This document shows, one piece after another, positions 153-59,144 of a stretch of 64,000 nucleotides of DNA. Source of the stretch: Vicinamibacterales bacterium (GTDB lineage: Bacteria > Acidobacteriota > Vicinamibacteria > Vicinamibacterales > UBA2999). Position numbers and translations under genes: made by a program. The first letter of the stretch is position 1. Every line of letters starts with the position of its first letter. Location of the stretch: NCBI GenBank assembly GCA_035293405.1, contig DATDOE010000113.1:28263-92262 (forward strand). Direction: 5' to 3'. The notes under the pieces were generated by a model that was not told the origin of the DNA, searched no databases, and worked only from the letters and a program-made list of their open reading frames with translations.

Positions 153-1151
153 ATGGCTGTCAGCACCCGCACAAAGCTGTCTCTCACCCGGCGCCCGAGG
201 CGGCTCCGCCGCACCGAAGCCATTCGGTCGCTCGTGCGCGAGACGCGACTCACACCCGACTGCTTCATCTACCCGCTGTTCGTCTGTGAAGGCCAGGGCG
301 TACGACGCGCTATCGGATCGATGCCTGGCGTGTATCAGCTGTCGGTGGACGAGGCGGTCAGGGAAGCGGCAGCGGCACAGGCCGACGGCGTGCCGGCCGT
401 GATCCTCTTCGGCCTTCCCGACGAGAAGGACCTGGAAGGCTCCGGCGCCGCCGATCCCGATGCGCCCGTGCAGTCGGCGGTCCGCGCGCTCAAGCGTGAG
501 GTCCGGGACCTCGTCGTGATGACCGATGTCTGCCTGTGCGAGTACACCTCCCACGGCCACTGCGGCATCGTCGACGGCGACGAGATCGTGAACGATGCCA
601 CGGTCGCCCAGCTCGCGCAGGCGGCGTTGTCTCATGCGGTCGCCGGCGCCGATTTCGTGGCACCGTCCGACATGATGGACGGGCGCGTCGCCGCGATCCG
701 CAAGACGCTCGACGACAAGGGCTTCGAGAACACCGGCATCCTGTCCTACGCGGCGAAGTACTGCTCGGGGTTCTACGGTCCGTTTCGTGAGGCTGCCGAC
801 TCGACGCCACAGTTCGGCGATCGGCGCAGCCACCAGATGGATCCGGCCAACGTCGAGGAAGCGCTGCGCGCGGTGGAGATCGACCTGGCGGAAGGCGCGG
901 ACATCGTGATGGTGAAACCGGCCCTCCCCTATCTCGACGTGCTGGCGAAGGTCAAAGAGCGCTTCGGTCAGCCAACCGCCGCGTATCACGTCAGCGGGGA
1001 ATACGCGATGCTCAAGGCCGCCGCCGAGCGCGGCTGGCTGGACGAGCCGCGGGTGATGATGGAGTCGCTGATCGGCATCAAGCGCGCCGGCGCCGACATG
1101 ATCGTCACCTACTATGCGCGAGAGGCTGCTCGTCTCCTCTCGCGCGTGTAA
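153..1151 (+). CDS. hemB: porphobilinogen synthase (delta-aminolevulinate dehydratase)
   Basis: ORF 87..1151. The ATG at 153 gives the N-terminus '[20 protein letters not shown]'. Cys-rich metal site '[14 protein letters not shown]' and '[12 protein letters not shown]' Lys context. hemL lies next door. Confidence 0.95.
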
Positions 1152-1241
1152 TTCAAAATGCGAAATGCAAAATGCAGGACGCGAGGGCCTTTGACTTGTC
1201 CGCCTGCCGTTTGTTTGCATTTTGAATTTTGAATTTTGAAT
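1151..1241. repeat. heptamer-array inverted repeat, ATGCAAA flavour (4+4 units)
   Basis: Left arm: attcaaa atgcgaa atgcaaa atgcagg (1151-1178). Right arm: tttgcat tttgaat tttgaat tttgaat (1214-1241). G+C-rich 35-nt spacer. Confidence 0.9.
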
Positions 1242-41528: not shown

Positions 41529-42848
41529 ATGCGCGGGCTGTGGTCCACTCTCGGCATGGTCGTCGTGCTGGCCGGCCTGGTCGGCTACATCTACTTCGTC
41601 GATTCGAAAGGCGAACCAGGTACGCCCGAGGCCAAGGAGAAGGTTTTCGGCGGCACTCTCTCGACGACCGACATCGAAGAGGTGCAGATCACGCTGGCGA
41701 GCGGCGAGAACAGCCGTCTCCAGAAGATCGACGGCACCTGGCGACTCGTGGCGCCCTCTCCGGCGCCCGCCGACGAGAGCGAGTTGACGTCGATCACGAG
41801 CGGGCTCGCGTCCCTCGAGATGCAGCGCGTGGTCGCCGAGAACGCGAGCGACATGAAGCAGTACGGTCTCGACCCGCCCCGCGTCGACGTGTCCTTCAGG
41901 AGCAAAGGGCAGAAAGAGCTGCGACGAATCGCACTCGGCACGAAGACGCCGACCAGCGGAGACATGTACGCGCGCATTCCCGATCAGCAACGTGTGTTCC
42001 TGGTCTCGTCCTTCCTCGATACGACCCTCAACAAGACGCCGTTCGCGCTGCGCGACAAGACGATCCTGAAATTCGATCGCGAGAAGGTCGATGGCCTCGA
42101 GCTCGCTGCCGGGTCGACGGTCATTCAGCTGGCCAAGCGCGGGCAGGACTGGACGATCGTCAAACCGTTTGCCGCACGCGCGGAGTATGCGGCCGTCGAA
42201 GGCTCGCTCGAGCGACTCGGCTCCGCGCAGATGGTCGGGATCGTCGAGCCAGAAGCCACCGACCTCGCGAAGTACGGGCTGGACAAGCCTGCCGTGACGA
42301 TGACTGTGGCGACGGGCAGCTCGCGCGCGTCGTTGACGCTCGGCAAGACCGACAATGCGCTGGTATTCGCGAAGGACTCGTCGCGACCGATGGTGTTCAC
42401 CGTCGCGCCGACGCTGCGAGAGGACGTCTTCAAGCTGGGCTCGGAGTTCCGCCGCAAGGATCTGTTCGACGGGCGTTCGTTTACGGCCAATCGCGTCGAG
42501 CTCCGGCGCGGCAGTGAAACGATCGTGCTGGACAAGAGCAAGGGCAAGGACGGGAAAGACGTCTGGCGCAACGGGGCCGGCAAGGATGTCGAGGCCATGA
42601 AGGCCGACGACCTGCTGACGAAGCTGACCGGCCTTCGCGCCTCGTCATTCGAAGACCAGCCGCACGCATCGCTCAAGATGCCCGCGCTCGTCGTCACTCT
42701 GCGGTTCAACGACAACCGGATGGAGACGGTGACCTTCGGCCGTGCGGGAACCGATGCGTTCGCCAGCCGCGCGGACGAAACCGGATCGGCGACGATCGAA
42801 GGACCCGGGCTCGACGAGGCGATGAAGGCACTCGATGCCGTAAAGTAA
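41529..42848 (+). CDS. DUF4340-like protein
   Basis: N-terminal TM 'LWSTLGMVVVLAGLVGYIYF' followed by repeated beta-rich modules. This is the position normally held by DUF4340 after GldG-like genes. Confidence 0.7.
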   Translation: MRGLWSTLGMVVVLAGLVGYIYFVDSKGEPGTPEAKEKVFGGTLSTTDIEEVQITLASGENSRLQKIDGTWRLVAPSPAPADESELTSITSGLASLEMQRVVAENASDMKQYGLDPPRVDVSFRSKGQKELRRIALGTKTPTSGDMYARIPDQQRVFLVSSFLDTTLNKTPFALRDKTILKFDREKVDGLELAAGSTVIQLAKRGQDWTIVKPFAARAEYAAVEGSLERLGSAQMVGIVEPEATDLAKYGLDKPAVTMTVATGSSRASLTLGKTDNALVFAKDSSRPMVFTVAPTLREDVFKLGSEFRRKDLFDGRSFTANRVELRRGSETIVLDKSKGKDGKDVWRNGAGKDVEAMKADDLLTKLTGLRASSFEDQPHASLKMPALVVTLRFNDNRMETVTFGRAGTDAFASRADETGSATIEGPGLDEAMKALDAVK

Positions 42849-42946
42849 TGCAAGATTCAAAATGCAAAATGCAAAACGTCAACGTGCAGGCGTCGCGTCG
42901 CCGCGATGGCATGCCGTGTTTGCATTTTGCATTTTGCATTTCGCAT
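42848..42946. repeat. heptamer-array inverted repeat, ATGCAAA flavour (4+4 units)
   Basis: Left: atgcaag attcaaa atgcaaa atgcaaa (42848-42875). Right: tttgcat x3, then ttcgcat (42919-42946). 43-nt G+C-rich spacer. Confidence 0.9.
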
Positions 42947-44403
42947 TACTGAGTTGCGCTAAGGGACCTCCGCGCGTTCCCTCTCCCTCGGCGCGCGGGC
43001 CTTCAGAAGCACGCGCGGATCCTGTCACGCAACTTCAGCGACACATCCTGAGCGCAACGCGAATGGCGGGCGTGACCCGCGCCGCGTGGGGCATCGTGGT
43101 GCAGTCGCTCGATCGGAACGAGCGGCTCTTCGAGTTGAATCCACGAACGCTGCTGGTGCCGGCGTCGTCGGCCAAGCTCGTGGGCGTGGCAACCGCGGCC
43201 GAGGCGGTCGGATGGGACTACCGCTACGTGACGACACTCCTGGCCGCGGGCCCGGTCACAGACGGTGTCCTTCATGGAGATCTCATTGCCGTCGGCTCTG
43301 GCGATCCGTCGATCGGTGGACGGGGCGGTGACGATCTCTCCAGTTGGGTTGAGGCGCTCAGGTCGGCGGGCATCCAGAGGATCGAGGGCCGCATCATCGG
43401 CGACGACGATGCGCTCGAGGAGCCACGACCGCAGCTCTCGTGGGCATGGGACGACCTGGGGTACACGACTGGGGTGCTGTTCGGGGCGCTGAACGTTGCC
43501 GAGAACCGCACGGTGGCTACGATTGCACCCGGCGCGTCCGAGGGCACGCCGGCGACACTCCTCGCGGAGGCGCGGGCGGCCTATCGCGGATTGACGAGTC
43601 GCGTGCTGACCGGCCCGCGAGGCTCGACGCAACTCCTGTGGCCGGAACAGCGGCCCGGCGAGCCGGCCCTCACACTGGCGGGCTCGATCCCGACTGGCGC
43701 CCCGCCGGCTCAGATCGATATCTCGGTCGGCAATCCCACACTCTGGTTTGCGAGCGTGTTGCGGGACCGGCTCGTCCGCGATGGCATCGTGGTCACGGGC
43801 GACGCCTTTGACATCGATGATGTCGCGCCAACACCGGATCGTGCGAGCGCGACGGTGCTCTTCACGCACCGCTCACGCCCGCTGTCGGAGATCGTGCGAG
43901 CCCTGCTCAAGGACAGCATCAACCTGTACGGCGAGGCTGTCATGCGGCTCAATGCCCCACGCGACACGCTCGCGACCAACGATGCCGCGCTCGAGGGCCT
44001 GGGGAAACGGCTGGAATCGTGGGGCATTCCAACCGACAGCATCCAACTCGTCGATGGGTCCGGCCTGTCCCGCCGCGATGCGATCTCTCCGGACGCGCTT
44101 CTGCTGGTGCTTCGGCGGATGCACGATCCCACCGGCAAGTCGCCTTTCATGACCGGCCTGCCGATCGCCGGCGTTGACGGTTCGCTCAGCGGGCGGATGA
44201 ACGGCACGCCCGCGGACGCCAACGTCCGCGCGAAAACCGGCACCATGTCCAATATCCGCTCCCTCGCCGGCTACGCGACAACACGCGACGGGGAGCGGCT
44301 GGCGTTCGTGATCATGGTGAACAATTTCGAGGGGACCGGGCCCAGCGCCAACACCGCAATCGATGCGATCGCCGTGCGCCTTGCCTCATTTAGTCGAGAG
44401 TAG
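42862..44403 (+). CDS. dacB: D-alanyl-D-alanine carboxypeptidase/endopeptidase (PBP4, S13)
   Basis: 'LVPASSAKL' (SxxK), 'DGSGLSR' (SxN-like), 'KTGTM' (KTG). The N-terminus is encoded by the heptamer repeat. An alternative GTG start is at 42916. Confidence 0.85.
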   Translation: MQNAKRQRAGVASPRWHAVFAFCILHFALLSCAKGPPRVPSPSARGPSEARADPVTQLQRHILSATRMAGVTRAAWGIVVQSLDRNERLFELNPRTLLVPASSAKLVGVATAAEAVGWDYRYVTTLLAAGPVTDGVLHGDLIAVGSGDPSIGGRGGDDLSSWVEALRSAGIQRIEGRIIGDDDALEEPRPQLSWAWDDLGYTTGVLFGALNVAENRTVATIAPGASEGTPATLLAEARAAYRGLTSRVLTGPRGSTQLLWPEQRPGEPALTLAGSIPTGAPPAQIDISVGNPTLWFASVLRDRLVRDGIVVTGDAFDIDDVAPTPDRASATVLFTHRSRPLSEIVRALLKDSINLYGEAVMRLNAPRDTLATNDAALEGLGKRLESWGIPTDSIQLVDGSGLSRRDAISPDALLLVLRRMHDPTGKSPFMTGLPIAGVDGSLSGRMNGTPADANVRAKTGTMSNIRSLAGYATTRDGERLAFVIMVNNFEGTGPSANTAIDAIAVRLASFSRE

Positions 44404-51426: not shown

Positions 51427-51644
51427 CGGTCACTCCGGATCCCGGTGCACCGTCTCCATCGAAAACGCCGGTAGACACACCGCGATGTATTCTGCGCCGC
51501 CCAGAGGCGTGCTGTAGCGCACCCATTCTCCAGCCGCGGTCAACTACTGCCTGACCGGCGACCTGCGTATTCCTCGATGCGCTTCGGAGGCGTACCCGCA
51601 GCCTGAACAATGGTCGGAGTTTGAATAAGTCGGGGCATTCTTCT

Positions 51645-51722
51645 GGTTCCTGGTTCGTGGTTCGTGGTTGAAAAGTCGGGAGTTGGGAGTTGGGAGTTGG
51701 CTCGGAGATCGAGTTGGGAGTT
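51645..51722. repeat. two adjacent heptamer arrays of different flavour (GGTTCGT then GGGAGTT)
   Basis: ggttcct ggttcgt ggttcgt ggttgaa, then gggagtt x3, ggctcggagatcga, gttgggagtt. Confidence 0.9.
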
Positions 51723-57646: not shown

Positions 57647-57657
57647 GAACCTCTGAA

Positions 57658-57783
57658 ATTCAAAATGCAAAATGCAAAATGCAAACATCACGTCGTCGGC
57701 AGCAACGAGGCACAAGCGGATCGCTTGTCACACAAATGCTGCGAATGACTTTCTGTTTGAATTTTGAATTTTGCATTTTGAAT
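57658..57783. repeat. heptamer-array inverted repeat, ATGCAAA flavour (4+4 units)
   Basis: Left: attcaaa, then atgcaaa x3 (57658-57685). Right: tttgaat tttgaat tttgcat tttgaat (57756-57783). The 70-nt spacer holds its own hairpin, ACAAGCG-gat-CGCTTGT. Confidence 0.9.
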
Positions 57784-59144
57784 TACCCCATGGTCTCTTT
57801 GACCGCGTCGATAATCTCCTGGCCCCATCGTCGAATCTCGCCTTCGTCCTGGCCTTCGAGCATCACCCGGAGCAGAGGCTCGGTGCCGGAGTAGCGAACC
57901 AGCAGTCGTCCGCTCCCCGCCAGCCGCGCCTCGACCGATGACATCACGGCGGCGACTCTGGGGATGGTCTGGAGATCGACCTTCTGCGGCACGCGCAGGT
58001 TCATCAGTACCTGCGGGTAGGTCGTGAGGTCCGACGCCAGGTCGGCGAGCTCGCGGCCGGTCGCAGCCATGGTCCTCAGGACGTTCAGAGAGGTGGCCAG
58101 ACCGTCGCCGGTGAACAGGTAGTCCGAGAAGATGATGTGTCCCGATTGCTCGCCGCCGAGCGAGAGATCGCGGCGCATCATTTCTTCCATCACGTACTTG
58201 TCGCCGACGGACGTACGAAGCATTGCGATACCGGCCTTGTGCAGCGCGAGCTCCAGGCCGATGTTGCTCATGACCGTGGCCACGATGGCGTTGCCCTTCA
58301 GTCGTCCCTCGGCCTTCATGCGCAAGGCGCACATGAGCATCACGGCATCGCCGTCCACGACCGCGCCGTTCGCGTCGATGAAGATCGCGCGATCGCCATC
58401 TCCGTCGAACGCCACGCCGAGCGGGTACCGACCCTCGACGACAACTTTCGAGAGCAGCGTGGGATCGGTCGAGCCACAGCCCAGGTTGATGTTCCGGCCG
58501 TCCGGCTGACTCCCGATGTGATGCACGTCGAACCCGAGATCCTGGAACAGTCGCGGCGCCACCGTGGTGGTGGCGCCGTTGGCGCAGTCCACGGCGATGC
58601 GCATGCTGGCGGTCCGTGCGCCCTGGGGCAGGATCTCGCGCAAGTGTCCGATGTACTCGGACCGCAGATCGACTTGCTCGACCGCATCCGCGTCGCCGGC
58701 GGCAACGCTCCACGACCCGTCAGCGACGATCGCTTCGACACGCTGCTCGAGGGTTTCGGTGAACTTTTCGCCGGCGCCCGAGAACACTTTGATGCCGTTG
58801 TCCTCGAACGGATTGTGTGACGCCGAGAGGACCACGCCAGCCGTATAGCCCATGCGCGGTGTGAGGTAGGCGACGGCGGGCGTCGGAATGATCCCGGCGC
58901 TCGTGAGCGTTCCGCCCTGGCTCCGGATTCCAACGGCCAACTCGCGCTCGATCCACGTGCCGGACTCGCGCGTGTCACGGCCGGCCAGAAGCCTGATGAC
59001 GGGACGTGCACCGTCTCCTGAAGGCACCTCGTCATGCCGCAGCACGCGCACGAGCGCGGCGCCAAGCCGCCGGATGGTTGGAACATCCAGCGGAGGGTCT
59101 CCCGCCCTGCCGCGCACTCCGTCCGTGCCGAACAACCGCGCCAT
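57783..59144 (-). CDS. glmM: phosphoglucosamine mutase
   Basis: 'LFGTDGVRG', 'GVVLSASHNPFEDNGIK', 'AFDGDGDR', 'GGEQSGH'. Confidence 0.95.
   Translation of the reverse strand: MARLFGTDGVRGRAGDPPLDVPTIRRLGAALVRVLRHDEVPSGDGARPVIRLLAGRDTRESGTWIERELAVGIRSQGGTLTSAGIIPTPAVAYLTPRMGYTAGVVLSASHNPFEDNGIKVFSGAGEKFTETLEQRVEAIVADGSWSVAAGDADAVEQVDLRSEYIGHLREILPQGARTASMRIAVDCANGATTTVAPRLFQDLGFDVHHIGSQPDGRNINLGCGSTDPTLLSKVVVEGRYPLGVAFDGDGDRAIFIDANGAVVDGDAVMLMCALRMKAEGRLKGNAIVATVMSNIGLELALHKAGIAMLRTSVGDKYVMEEMMRRDLSLGGEQSGHIIFSDYLFTGDGLATSLNVLRTMAATGRELADLASDLTTYPQVLMNLRVPQKVDLQTIPRVAAVMSSVEARLAGSGRLLVRYSGTEPLLRVMLEGQDEGEIRRWGQEIIDAVKETMG

What the first reader, a model, noticed from the sequence alone, without database searches (positions are those of the whole stretch)
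1151..1241. ATGCAAA-flavour elements share a strict 4+4 architecture and start on the upstream gene's TAA
The three copies (1151-1241, 42848-42946, 57658-57783) each have exactly four left units (ATKCAAA) and four right units (TTTGMAT) around a G+C-rich spacer of 35, 43 or 70 nt. In each copy the TAA stop codon of the upstream gene (hemB, the DUF4340 gene, glmM) is contiguous with or overlaps the first unit ('gTAAttcaaaatgc', 'gTAAtgcaagattcaaaatgc'). Either the element inserts at or next to TAA, or it supplies the stop codon. The fixed unit number argues for a copied element rather than random slippage.
Basis: seen in the sequence. Interest (0 to 1): 0.6.

Follow-up and report, generated by a model that had tools for sequence, protein, structure and literature searches.

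The report
Gene-less copies of heptamer-armed hairpin element
The three sites are short, gene-less copies of a hairpin element built from two opposed runs of four 7-base words, and a sister copy in the same genome carries a small four-helix-bundle gene like the inserts known from ribosomal RNA genes, which ties an unexplained class of bacterial repeats to a candidate partner protein.

Summary
All three sites have four ATKCARA units, a G+C-rich spacer of 35, 43 or 70 nt, then four TYTGMAT units. In each, a neighbouring gene's TAA overlaps the outermost unit.

Genome-wide there are 157 such arms, and 73% have exactly four units. They form 66 pairs, all facing inward and none facing outward. Each arm is a polar module, GTA-(ATKCARA)4-CAS. 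The smallest elements are 67-nt palindromes, and extra DNA accumulates only at the centre.

The TAA belongs to the terminal GTAAT motif. That motif is present whichever kind of gene end, or none, lies outside the arm. It serves as the stop codon for 25 arms. I found no sign that the element targets TAA stops.

One pair, outside the window, holds a PF05635/TIGR02436 four-helix-bundle gene in its loop. At least six of the eleven such genes in the genome are bracketed by inverted tandem arrays, each with its own word. Across the genus the protein clade follows the word.

Relatives show presence/absence, swaps between words, and CAAA/CAGA make-up specific to each genome.

Best reading: these are gene-less members of an element family built like 23S rRNA intervening sequences. 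How they spread is unknown. Copy 2 also encodes the DacB signal peptide.

The parts
1148..1178 (+). Copy 1, left arm: terminal GTA plus four units ATTCAAA ATGCGAA ATGCAAA ATGCAGG. The hemB stop TAA (1149-1151) lies inside the GTAAT terminus.
1179..1213 (.). Copy 1, spacer (loop), 35 nt, unrelated to the other spacers.
1214..1241 (+). Copy 1, right arm: TTTGCAT TTTGAAT TTTGAAT TTTGAAT. The hemL ATG at 1255 follows 13 nt later.
42845..42875 (+). Copy 2, left arm: GTA plus ATGCAAG ATTCAAA ATGCAAA ATGCAAA. The DUF4340 stop TAA (42846-42848) lies inside GTAAT. The ATG at 42862 is the likely dacB start.
42876..42918 (.). Copy 2, spacer, 43 nt. It is open in the dacB frame and would encode the arginine-rich start of the signal peptide.
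42919..42949 (+). Copy 2, right arm: TTTGCAT x3, TTCGCAT, then TAC. Read as FAFCILHFAL, it forms the hydrophobic core of the DacB lipoprotein signal peptide. The lipobox Cys codon is at 42955-42957.
57655..57685 (+). Copy 3, arm next to pdxJ: ATTCAAA ATGCAAA x3, with GAA rather than GTA as outer triplet. The pdxJ ATG (57646-57644, minus strand) is 11 nt away.
57686..57755 (.). Copy 3, spacer, 70 nt.
57756..57786 (-). Copy 3, arm next to glmM. On the minus strand it reads GTA plus ATTCAAA ATGCAAA ATTCAAA ATTCAAA. The glmM stop TAA (57785-57783) lies inside GTAAT.

Best explanation
The three loci are gene-less members of a genus-wide family of heptamer-armed hairpin elements.

Architecture. The conserved, copied unit is the arm, a polar 34-nt module 5'-GTA-(ATKCARA)4-CAS-3'. 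Two arms always sit with their GTA ends pointing outward. The minimal element is a 67-nt palindrome. All further length is unrelated DNA that has built up at the centre (the loop).

Gene-bearing member. At one conserved locus (G000 contig C133:36483-37060, outside the window) the loop holds a four-helix-bundle gene of the 23S rRNA intervening-sequence family (PF05635/TIGR02436, Avd-like). That copy has the same design as the Coxiella 23S IVS: a 28-bp stem made of about four heptamers, with the ORF in the loop.

Location and tolerance. The elements live in transcribed gaps, always with at least one gene's 3' end next to them. They tolerate being pressed against coding sequence for three reasons:
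- the terminus carries a TAA;
- ATG-type units offer a start codon in all three frames;
- TGA-type units offer a stop codon in all three frames.
So an arm can supply a stop codon (hemB, DUF4340, glmM) or be absorbed into a gene (the DacB signal peptide).

Inferred, not shown. Arms are repeatedly rewritten or newly laid down from a genome-specific template. The cognate four-helix-bundle protein recognises its 7-nt word, in an RNA or DNA hairpin, and takes part in this. The enzyme and the insertion chemistry are unknown.
For: Architecture and polarity:
- 157 arms, 73% with exactly 4 units; 66 convergent pairs, 0 divergent, 1 direct. The chance of 66/66 by luck is about 1e-20.
- The outer boundary is sharp, GTA with random sequence beyond -3; the inner boundary is CAS.
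- Five elements have a 5-nt spacer CASTG, which makes them 67-nt palindromes.
- Spacers are unrelated to each other and unstructured.

Context:
- 74 of 80 arms that face a gene's 3' end lie 0-30 nt from the stop.
- Of 43 classifiable pairs, 30 lie between co-directional genes, 13 between convergent genes and 0 between divergent genes (P = 4e-4).

Copying:
- A rare arm variant is shared by 6 loci whose partner arms differ.
- The CAAA/CAGA make-up is genome-specific: G014 0/71, G013 7/105, G022 96/0. It also holds at old orthologous sites such as dacB and hemB.
- G008 has 76 CAGA windows. Its relative G009, 95-96% identical, has 11.

Turnover:
- At the hemB-hemL and glmM-pdxJ junctions, genus members are empty, filled, or filled with another word.
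- G008 against G009: one site is present versus absent, and another has swapped from ATKCAAA to GGGTTCA inside identical flanks.

Link to the four-helix-bundle gene:
- The only long-spacer ATKCAAA pair encloses a PF05635/TIGR02436 gene (PDB 2RLD, E = 3e-17).
- At least 6 of the 11 PF05635 genes in G000 have inverted tandem arrays on both sides, each with a different word, and 2 more have arrays on one side. The background rate is 0.0004.
- All 8 homologues with at least 53% identity across the genus carry ATKCARA arms. None of 18 more distant ones does (Fisher 6e-7).
- In the protein tree, members cluster by word. Median identity is 51% for the same word and 27% for different words.
- Genomes with this gene clade hold more arms: median 94 against 21, P = 9e-4.
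- At the syntenic locus, G010 has a short gene-less ATKCAAA hairpin where 8 species have the gene-bearing form.

Design match: the Coxiella IVS has a 28-bp stem, 3-4 tandem heptamers, an S23p ORF in the loop and RNase III cleavage (PMC4990558).
Against: - No movement was observed directly.
- No target-site duplication was found. T at -2 is only 68% conserved, less than G at -3.
- No catalytic protein is linked to the arms. Four-helix-bundle proteins have no known enzymatic activity.
- The gene-bearing copy sits at the same locus in at least 8 species, so it is itself not mobile.
- G022 (71 arms) and G014 (83 arms) show no intact gene of the ATKCARA clade, and the G024 copy is a pseudogene. Arms therefore persist without the gene.
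- Spacers of the gene-less copies show no remnant of the gene.
- The link between arm count and gene presence is confounded by phylogeny and by incomplete draft genomes.
- My gene calls are home-made, using longest ORFs and a codon-usage score.
- The excess of mismatches between partner arms at the K position (101 of 160 cells against 78 expected, P = 5e-5) and the conserved arms at dacB point to selection on structure or coding. Such selection could act without any mobility.
Confidence: 0.6

Rival explanations
1. Host-selected functional sites. The arm pairs would be kept because the hairpin does something for the cell. It might stabilise or process the mRNA between cistrons, as REP elements or RNase III sites do. 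Or it might be a paired binding site for a nucleoid or global regulator protein, as proposed for the Geobacter class 1-3 sites. Under this view spread and turnover are secondary.
For: - The pairs are never found between divergent genes and always lie next to a gene's 3' end.
- All three copies fold strongly.
- Partner arms mismatch at K more often than random partners do (P = 5e-5), while they match far better elsewhere. That looks like selection for an interrupted stem.
- Arms at dacB are kept in 13 genus members.
- Aklujkar 2009 read near-identical paired MTYCTGA arrays as regulator sites.
Against: - At housekeeping junctions (hemB-hemL, glmM-pdxJ) close relatives are empty, filled, or filled with a different, non-homologous word.
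- Ancestral junctions had overlapping stop and start codons (TAATG, ATGA) with no room for a site.
- Arm numbers range from 1 to 240 within one genus.
- Conservation at dacB is explained by coding, since the right arm is the signal-peptide core.
Confidence: 0.2
2. Ordinary non-autonomous transposon: a MITE with a TA duplication, or a REPIN mobilised by a RAYT. A conventional transposase encoded elsewhere would recognise the 34-nt arms as terminal inverted repeats.
For: - The ends-out polarity is strict.
- The termini are sharp, G-TA-AT...AT-TA-C.
- A paralogous gene junction in G000 has the bare octamer GTAATTAC where its paralogue has a full element, and that octamer occurs only 3 times in the genome.
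- Copy number is lineage-specific.
Against: - The interior is not conserved among copies.
- Partner arms of one element do not share a subfamily, so the arm rather than the element is what is copied.
- T at -2 is less conserved than G at -3, which does not fit a TA duplication.
- The four Y1_Tnp (RAYT-type) genes of G000 have no heptamer arrays within 2.5 kb, and their number does not follow arm number across 19 genomes.
- No arm pair encloses a transposase, either in G000 or in two Nostoc loci with arms 1.9 and 4.3 kb apart.
- GTAATTAC can also arise by slippage between the AATT repeats at the two ends of a hairpin.
Confidence: 0.1
3. Slippage-born simple repeats. Each array would arise and grow locally by replication slippage, and the inverted partner by local template switching. 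Nothing would be copied between loci.
For: - Unit numbers change between close relatives in other flavours (G022 against G024, 4 against 6 units).
- GC-rich flavours have long tails of unit number.
- Heptamer repeats are over-represented in many large genomes (Rehm 2015).
Against: - Unit number peaks sharply at 4 and falls off on both sides.
- The same word, the same GTA terminus and the same CAS inner end recur at about 70 loci.
- A rare variant is shared by several loci.
- The CAAA/CAGA flavour shifts genome-wide, including at orthologous sites.
- Polarity is absolute.
Confidence: 0.05

Closest known systems
ORF-bearing intervening sequences (IVS) of 23S rRNA genes (Coxiella burnetii helix 45, Leptospira; Warrier et al. 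2016, PMC4990558)
   Same: [quoted passage not shown]
- The 5' part of the stem is 3-4 tandem heptamers (GACAGAT in Coxiella).
- A PF05635 four-helix-bundle ORF sits in the loop.
- The element lies inside a transcribed region.
The G000 C133 copy has all of these features with the word ATKCAAA.
   Different: - It lies at protein-gene junctions, not in rRNA helices.
- It has about 70 gene-less copies per genome, with loops of 5-80 nt.
- RNase III cleavage was not tested here.
- The three window copies carry no ORF.
Convergent GGGAATC heptamer repeat pairs of Xanthomonas (Rehm et al. 2015, PMC4692102)
   Same: - Intergenic tandem heptamers, most often four units.
- 70-75 pairs per genome in convergent orientation.
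- Close to ORF ends, some overlapping stop codons.
- Poorly conserved between species.
   Different: - The Xanthomonas word is G-rich and was read as quadruplex-forming. ATKCARA has no G-tracts, so the four-unit rule cannot come from quadruplexes.
- No protein partner or defined terminus was described there.
Class 3 paired 'global regulator binding sites' of Geobacter metallireducens (Aklujkar et al. 2009, PMC2700814, Fig. S5)
   Same: - Inverted pairs of tandem heptamers at a variable distance, between genes.
- The word MTYCTGA (ATTCTGA/CTCCTGA) is nearly the TCTGAAT word found here.
- The strand arrangement is the same.
   Different: - Five units rather than four, and only 8 pairs.
- They were read as IHF/HU or regulator sites.
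- No terminal GTA, and no link to a four-helix-bundle gene was reported.
REP/BIME and REPIN-RAYT systems
   Same: - Dispersed hairpin-forming repeats in 3' UTRs and between cistrons, absent from divergent promoter regions.
- Species-specific sequence at orthologous sites.
- One vertically inherited gene flanked by its own repeat type, alongside many gene-less copies.
   Different: - A single arm is not itself a palindrome.
- The partner gene is a four-helix-bundle protein, not a Y1 HUH transposase.
- RAYT-type genes in G000 are not flanked by these arms.
- The interior of a pair is not conserved.
TAACTGA intergenic heptamer direct repeats of Beggiatoaceae, Cyanobacteria and Bacteroidetes (MacGregor 2015, PMC4679880)
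   Same: - A heptamer word containing stop codons, repeated 2-6 times, within a few nt of gene boundaries.
- A patchy distribution across several phyla.
   Different: - Those are direct repeats without an inverted partner.
- They lie mostly just upstream of start codons.
- They were proposed as binding sites for a translational regulator.

Membership tests
23S rRNA IVS-type element (S23p/PF05635-bearing) | Terminal inverted repeats forming a stem of about 28 bp that contains tandem heptamers | tested here: met
   Arms are 4 x 7 nt in 73% of cases. The three window copies fold arm to arm.
23S rRNA IVS-type element (S23p/PF05635-bearing) | PF05635 four-helix-bundle ORF in the loop | tested here: not met
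   The three window copies have 35-70 nt loops without an ORF. The feature is met only by the sister copy at G000 C133:36483-37060.
23S rRNA IVS-type element (S23p/PF05635-bearing) | Inserted in a helix of the 23S rRNA gene | tested here: not met
   All three lie between protein-coding genes. No rRNA family matched in the window.
23S rRNA IVS-type element (S23p/PF05635-bearing) | Stem cut by RNase III in the transcript | not testable with these tools
MITE (non-autonomous DNA transposon) | Terminal inverted repeats | tested here: met
   34-nt arms with an outward GTA terminus; 66 of 66 pairs are convergent.
MITE (non-autonomous DNA transposon) | Target-site duplication | tested here: inconclusive
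   A TA or AT next to the arms cannot be told apart from the palindromic terminus. T at -2 is only 68% conserved. Filled and empty orthologous sites do not differ by a simple insertion. One paralogous site reads GTAATTAC.
MITE (non-autonomous DNA transposon) | Internal sequence shared among copies and with an autonomous transposase-bearing element | tested here: not met
   Spacers are unrelated. No arm pair encloses a transposase.
REPIN-RAYT | Cognate Y1 (HUH) transposase gene flanked by the repeat | tested here: not met
   The four PF01797 genes in G000 have no heptamer arrays within 2.5 kb.
REPIN-RAYT | Each repeat unit is itself a short palindrome | tested here: not met
   (ATKCARA)4 is not self-complementary. 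Only the two arms together pair.
Convergent heptamer SSR pairs (Xanthomonas type) | Tandem heptamers, typically four units, in convergent pairs near ORF ends | tested here: met
   compared
Convergent heptamer SSR pairs (Xanthomonas type) | G-tracts able to form a quadruplex | tested here: not met
   The unit ATKCARA has at most one G.
Intrinsic (bidirectional) terminator | G+C-rich stem-loop followed by a U-run, at the end of a transcription unit | tested here: not met
   Spacers are no more structured than shuffles (mean z -0.27). 30 of 43 classifiable pairs lie between co-directional genes, often where relatives have overlapping stop and start codons.

The most novel reading that the evidence does not exclude
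Four-helix-bundle (PF05635) proteins and period-7 tandem arrays would be two halves of one self-maintaining system.
- Each protein lineage reads its own 7-nt word.
- The gene sits in the loop of one 'home' hairpin that is inherited vertically.
- The protein drives, or is required for, the writing of 34-nt arms of the same word in opposed pairs at transcribed gene junctions elsewhere in the genome.

Under this reading the ATKCARA hairpins in this window are its non-autonomous offspring. 23S rRNA intervening sequences would be the same system settled in rRNA. The unexplained excess of heptamer repeats in large bacterial genomes would be its footprint.
Probability: 0.35. Interest if true: 0.85.

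Novelty: new variant of a known kind. Interest (0 to 1): 0.68.

Why it matters
Tandem heptamer repeats, often in opposed pairs, have been reported since 1990 in cyanobacteria and later in Xanthomonas and Geobacter. No mechanism or partner protein has been given for them. Separately, 23S rRNA intervening sequences and their four-helix-bundle ORF have had no known function since 1993.

Here one genome shows both forms of a single word: about 70 gene-less hairpins and one gene-bearing hairpin. Within the genus the protein clade tracks the word. Close relatives differ by presence, absence and word swaps.

That makes a concrete question testable: does the four-helix-bundle protein bind its heptamer word and maintain or spread the arms?

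The finding also matters for annotation. These elements supply stop codons, and in dacB they supply a start codon and a signal peptide. Gene boundaries next to them are therefore easy to call wrongly.

Tried and rejected
- RAYT/REPIN link: Y1_Tnp genes are present in all 19 genomes tested. They are not flanked by heptamer arrays in G000, and their number does not follow arm number.
- TA target duplication: not supported by base conservation or by filled and empty orthologous sites.
- Shared interior: an all-against-all comparison of spacers, and spacers against the genome, gave only short motifs and one local duplicate.
- Structured spacers or terminators: spacer folding is no better than shuffles.
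- Known RNA family: no Rfam match in the window at gathering thresholds.
- Empty sites within the genome: joined flanks of 66 pairs gave one paralogous hit, which led to GTAATTAC.
- Autonomous copy in other phyla: two Nostoc loci with arms 1.9 and 4.3 kb apart hold ordinary genes. Two Clostridia loci hold no four-helix-bundle gene.
- Strain-level variants: the exact PdxJ protein is not on record elsewhere. The first attempt had a frame error.
- Literature search for the literal repeat strings: no paper.
- TAA targeting: the stop-codon usage of neighbouring genes does not support it.
Full report
**1. Observation**

A two-unit pattern with one mismatch allowed hits 17 times in the window. All hits fall in these three places, against 0.02 expected.

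The upstream genes are ALAD/hemB, a DUF4340 gene and a glmM-type phosphomutase. The downstream genes are hemL, a Peptidase_S13 (DacB/PBP4) gene and pdxJ. In each copy a TAA stop shares its last A with the outermost unit. In copy 3 this happens on the minus strand at the right end.

A few units are degenerate: ATGCAGG, ATGCAAG and TTCGCAT. All three copies fold arm to arm, with z-scores of -4.3 to -7.5. No Rfam family matches.

**2. The family in this genome**

The window is C113:28263-92262 of a 7.58-Mb assembly with 65% G+C. That assembly holds more than 500 period-7 arrays of many words.

For the word ATKCARA, which covers the CAAA and CAGA flavours, I found 157 arms:

| Units per arm | Arms |
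|---|---|
| 3 | 20 |
| 4 | 114 |
| 5 | 16 |
| 6 | 4 |
| 7 | 3 |

- They form 66 inverted pairs, 40 of them 4+4.
- All 66 pairs are convergent, with none divergent and one direct neighbour.
- When the four-unit arms are aligned, the outer boundary is sharp: G at -3 (84%), T at -2 (68%), A at -1 (96%), with random sequence beyond. The inner end is C/A, A, G/C.
- Five pairs have a 5-nt spacer reading CASTG. The minimal element is therefore a 67-nt palindrome, and longer elements differ only by DNA at the centre.
- Spacers are unrelated to one another and to the rest of the genome. They are no more structured than shuffles.

**3. The TAA question**

I made my own gene calls from the longest ORFs, scored by codon usage. 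This gave 5596 genes and 82% coding density.

- 80 arms face a gene's 3' end. In 25 the arm's TAA is the stop codon. In 49 the stop lies 1-30 nt upstream.
- 47 arms face a gene start, usually within about 18 nt.
- The GTA terminus is equally common on arms that face starts (27/47) and on arms behind a separate stop (29/55). The TAA therefore belongs to the element.
- Genes ending just before an arm use TAA in 12 of 49 cases, against 15% genome-wide. That is no real sign of targeting.
- At orthologous sites in the genus, the distance from stop to element runs from overlap to about 10 nt, and the stop can be TAA, TGA or TAG.

'Inserts at TAA' is not supported.

**4. Context**

Of 43 pairs with both neighbours assigned, 30 lie between co-directional genes, 13 between convergent genes and none between divergent genes. 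The genome-wide share of divergent gaps is 17%, giving P = 4e-4.

The elements fill the gap almost completely.

**5. Fine structure of the arms**

- The R position (A or G) agrees between partner arms in 147 of 160 cells.
- The K position (G or T) disagrees in 101 of 160 cells, against 78 expected from random partners (P = 5e-5).
- No 4+4 element has fully matching arms. The stem is therefore interrupted about every 7 bp by a G-A or U-C mismatch.
- All 16 K patterns occur.
- One arm with a rare change (ATGCGAA in unit 2) recurs at six loci whose partner arms differ. This points to the arm, not the whole element, as the copied unit.

Other words in the genome also have a fixed polarity. Every flavour with complementary pairs shows one orientation only, for example 24:0, 14:0 and 11:0. 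Six heterologous pairs that cannot base-pair still obey it.

**6. Relatives**

All 24 genomes of the same genus have such arms, from 1 to 240 per genome. Genomes of other genera in the order have almost none. I built a tree from six genes to place the genus members.

*hemB-hemL junction*
- Eight species carry an ATKCARA element, with unrelated spacers.
- G007 and G011 have ctGTAATGaaa, where the TAA overlaps the ATG. G009 and G003 have TGA/ATG overlaps.
- G015 has another palindrome and G024 has another repeat word.
- Filled and empty states are scattered across the tree.

*glmM-pdxJ junction*
- The same gap holds ATKCARA, ACKCAAA, CAATGCC, AACTCCC, AATCCCA or GGCTCAA hairpins, or nothing, depending on the species.

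*Close pairs*
- G008 and G009 are 95-96% identical over 20 kb. They differ by presence versus absence at glmM-pdxJ. At another gap, with identical flanks, an ATKCAAA element in one is replaced by a GGGTTCA element in the other.
- G022 and G024 have about 92% identical flanks. They show a swap at hemB-hemL, and at another site one arm has been replaced by another word while the partner arm is unchanged.

*Flavour make-up, CAAA/CAGA three-unit windows*

| Genome | CAAA | CAGA |
|---|---|---|
| G014 | 0 | 71 |
| G013 | 7 | 105 |
| G022 | 96 | 0 |
| G024 | 63 | 0 |
| G000 | 98 | 64 |
| G008 | 84 | 76 |
| G009 | 90 | 11 |

The old dacB site and the hemB site carry the flavour of their genome. Arms are therefore overwritten or replaced in concert. 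G008 appears to have gained many CAGA arms recently.

**7. The gene-bearing copy**

The only ATKCAAA pair with a long spacer (510 nt; C133:36483-37060) encloses a 140-aa ORF on the minus strand.
- It matches PF05635 at 65 bits, TIGR02436 at 77 bits and PDB 2RLD at E = 3e-17.
- The ORF runs into the arm and ends at the arm's TGA.

G000 has 11 PF05635 genes. At least six have inverted tandem arrays on both sides, each with a different word:
- GGCTTTG
- the 9-mer GGATCGTTC
- AATTCAAA
- AGTAGGC
- CGGGACC
- the 8-mer AAAGTGGA

Two more have arrays on one side: CAATGCC at C138 and AAGTGTG/CACTTTC at C65. Random 400-nt windows have arrays on both sides at a rate of 0.0004.

Across 25 genus genomes:
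- All eight homologues with at least 53% identity carry ATKCARA arms.
- None of 18 more distant homologues does. They carry AACTCCC, CAAAGGG, CAATGCC, AAATCCC and other words (Fisher 6e-7).
- In a protein tree, members cluster by word. Median identity is 51% for the same word and 27% for different words.
- The G008 gene has CAGA arms and the G009 gene has CAAA arms, matching the gene-less hairpin populations of the two genomes.
- Genomes with this gene clade hold more arms, median 94 against 21, P = 9e-4.

The gene-bearing copy lies between the same two flanking genes in at least eight species. At that locus G010 has a short gene-less ATKCAAA hairpin, and G013 has an AACTCCC-armed paralogue.

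I reached this link from the sequence before looking up earlier notes. Those notes report the same gene-plus-arms module in many other genomes.

**8. Comparison with the literature**

- The Coxiella 23S IVS has a 28-bp stem from terminal inverted repeats, three to four tandem heptamers at its 5' side and the S23p ORF in the loop. RNase III cuts it. Earlier authors suggested it may once have been mobile (PMC4990558).
- Rehm et al. described 70-75 convergent GGGAATC pairs per Xanthomonas genome, mostly of four units and near ORF ends (PMC4692102).
- Aklujkar et al. listed eight inverted pairs of five MTYCTGA heptamers in Geobacter metallireducens. That is almost the word found here, with the same strand arrangement (PMC2700814).
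- MacGregor described TAACTGA direct repeats in three phyla (PMC4679880).
- None of these papers links gene-less arrays to the four-helix-bundle gene.
- An exact four-unit ATKCARA pattern also occurs in many phyla. Sixteen of 80 fetched loci carry inverted pairs, often 4+4. They come from Clostridia, Bacteroidales, Nostocaceae, Planctomycetota and other Acidobacteria.

**9. What is shown and what is inferred**

Shown:
- architecture, polarity, unit number and terminus;
- gene context;
- turnover among relatives;
- genome-specific flavour;
- the nesting of four-helix-bundle genes in arrays, and covariation of protein clade with word.

Inferred:
- that arms are copied between loci;
- that the protein recognises the word and takes part in copying;
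- that the stem is processed in RNA.

I saw no movement, no duplication and no enzyme. Arms persist in genomes without an intact gene. Relatives are draft genomes of uneven completeness.

**10. Verdict**

The reading is partly right.

The three sites are gene-less members of an IVS-like, heptamer-armed hairpin family that has a candidate partner protein. I rate this a new variant of known kinds. Interest is moderately high, because it makes the protein-word hypothesis testable.

Noticed in passing
window 42862-42957: Copy 2 is probably translated as the start of DacB/PBP4. An ATG in the left arm opens a frame that runs through the spacer and the right arm to a lipobox (MQNAKRQRAGVASPRWHAVFAFCILHFALLSC|AK). 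The right arm encodes the hydrophobic core. The same open frame and the (F/L)AFCILHFALL(S/G)C core are found in about ten genus members, despite quite different spacers.
   Followed up: partly
G000 contig C133:36483-37060 (outside the window; locus L216:1488-2065): This ATKCAAA arm pair has a 510-nt loop holding a 140-aa PF05635/TIGR02436 four-helix-bundle gene. The ORF's last residues (..LSAFLNFEF) and its TGA stop are encoded by the arm. The G012 orthologue does the same (..FAFCILNLAF*).
   Followed up: yes
G000 contigs C99, C64, C89, C33, C138, C108, C65: Other PF05635 genes of the genome are each nested in or next to inverted tandem arrays of a different word, including one 8-mer and one 9-mer. 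Several of these words (CGGGAYC, AGGCAGT, GGCTTTG) also have many gene-less arrays in the genome.
   Followed up: partly
G000 contig C81:86222 and C25:1954: The octamer GTAATTAC consists of the two element termini joined directly, and it occurs only 3 times in the genome. At C81 it sits exactly where the paralogous gene pair on C127 has a full ATKCAAA element, and its TAA is the upstream gene's stop. At C25 it sits 1 nt before a start codon. It could be a deletion footprint (slippage between the AATT repeats at the hairpin base) or a target.
   Followed up: partly
all 4+4 pairs of G000: Partner arms disagree at the G/T position of the unit more often than random partners do (101 of 160 cells against 78 expected), while agreeing much better everywhere else. 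The stems therefore carry a mismatch about every 7 bp. The cause is unknown. It could be selection against perfect palindromes or against RNase III cleavage.
   Followed up: partly
window 51643-51700 (C113:79905-79962) and five other G000 loci: Neighbouring arrays of two different, non-complementary words still follow the left-form/right-form polarity learned from complementary pairs (24 left-right, 0 right-left). Polarity therefore does not depend on the two arms being able to pair.
   Followed up: partly
G013:C5:152888-154593; G010:C152:10140-10260 (L253): The chromosomal slot that holds the ATKCARA-armed four-helix-bundle gene in eight species holds an AACTCCC-armed paralogue in G013 and a short gene-less ATKCAAA hairpin in G010.
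   Followed up: partly
L049, L057, L060, L072, L080, L103, L109, L112, L117, L128: Inverted 4+4 ATKCARA pairs with variable loops also occur in Clostridia, Bacteroidales, Planctomycetota and Nostocaceae genomes, often flanked by TAA...TTA. Two Faecousia copies share a loop hairpin (tgtcggc.ttgccgaca).
   Followed up: partly
dacB-site loops of G006, G015 and G019 (L181, L188, L184): The loops of orthologous elements have taken up other small palindromes (GGGCCGACCTTAAGGTCGGCCC; terminator-like GGGGTGAA...TTCACCCC). In G019 there is a tandem duplicate of arm plus loop. The centre of the hairpin is a hot spot for insertions.
   Followed up: no
window 2561-61634 (many places): The window holds at least ten further heptamer arrays of other words (CAACTCC, CTGGTTC/ACGAACC, GTTGGGA, CCGAGTC inside queC, TCCGGGA/CGAATCC, AAGTGCA/ACTTCGC). 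They were not studied here.
   Followed up: no
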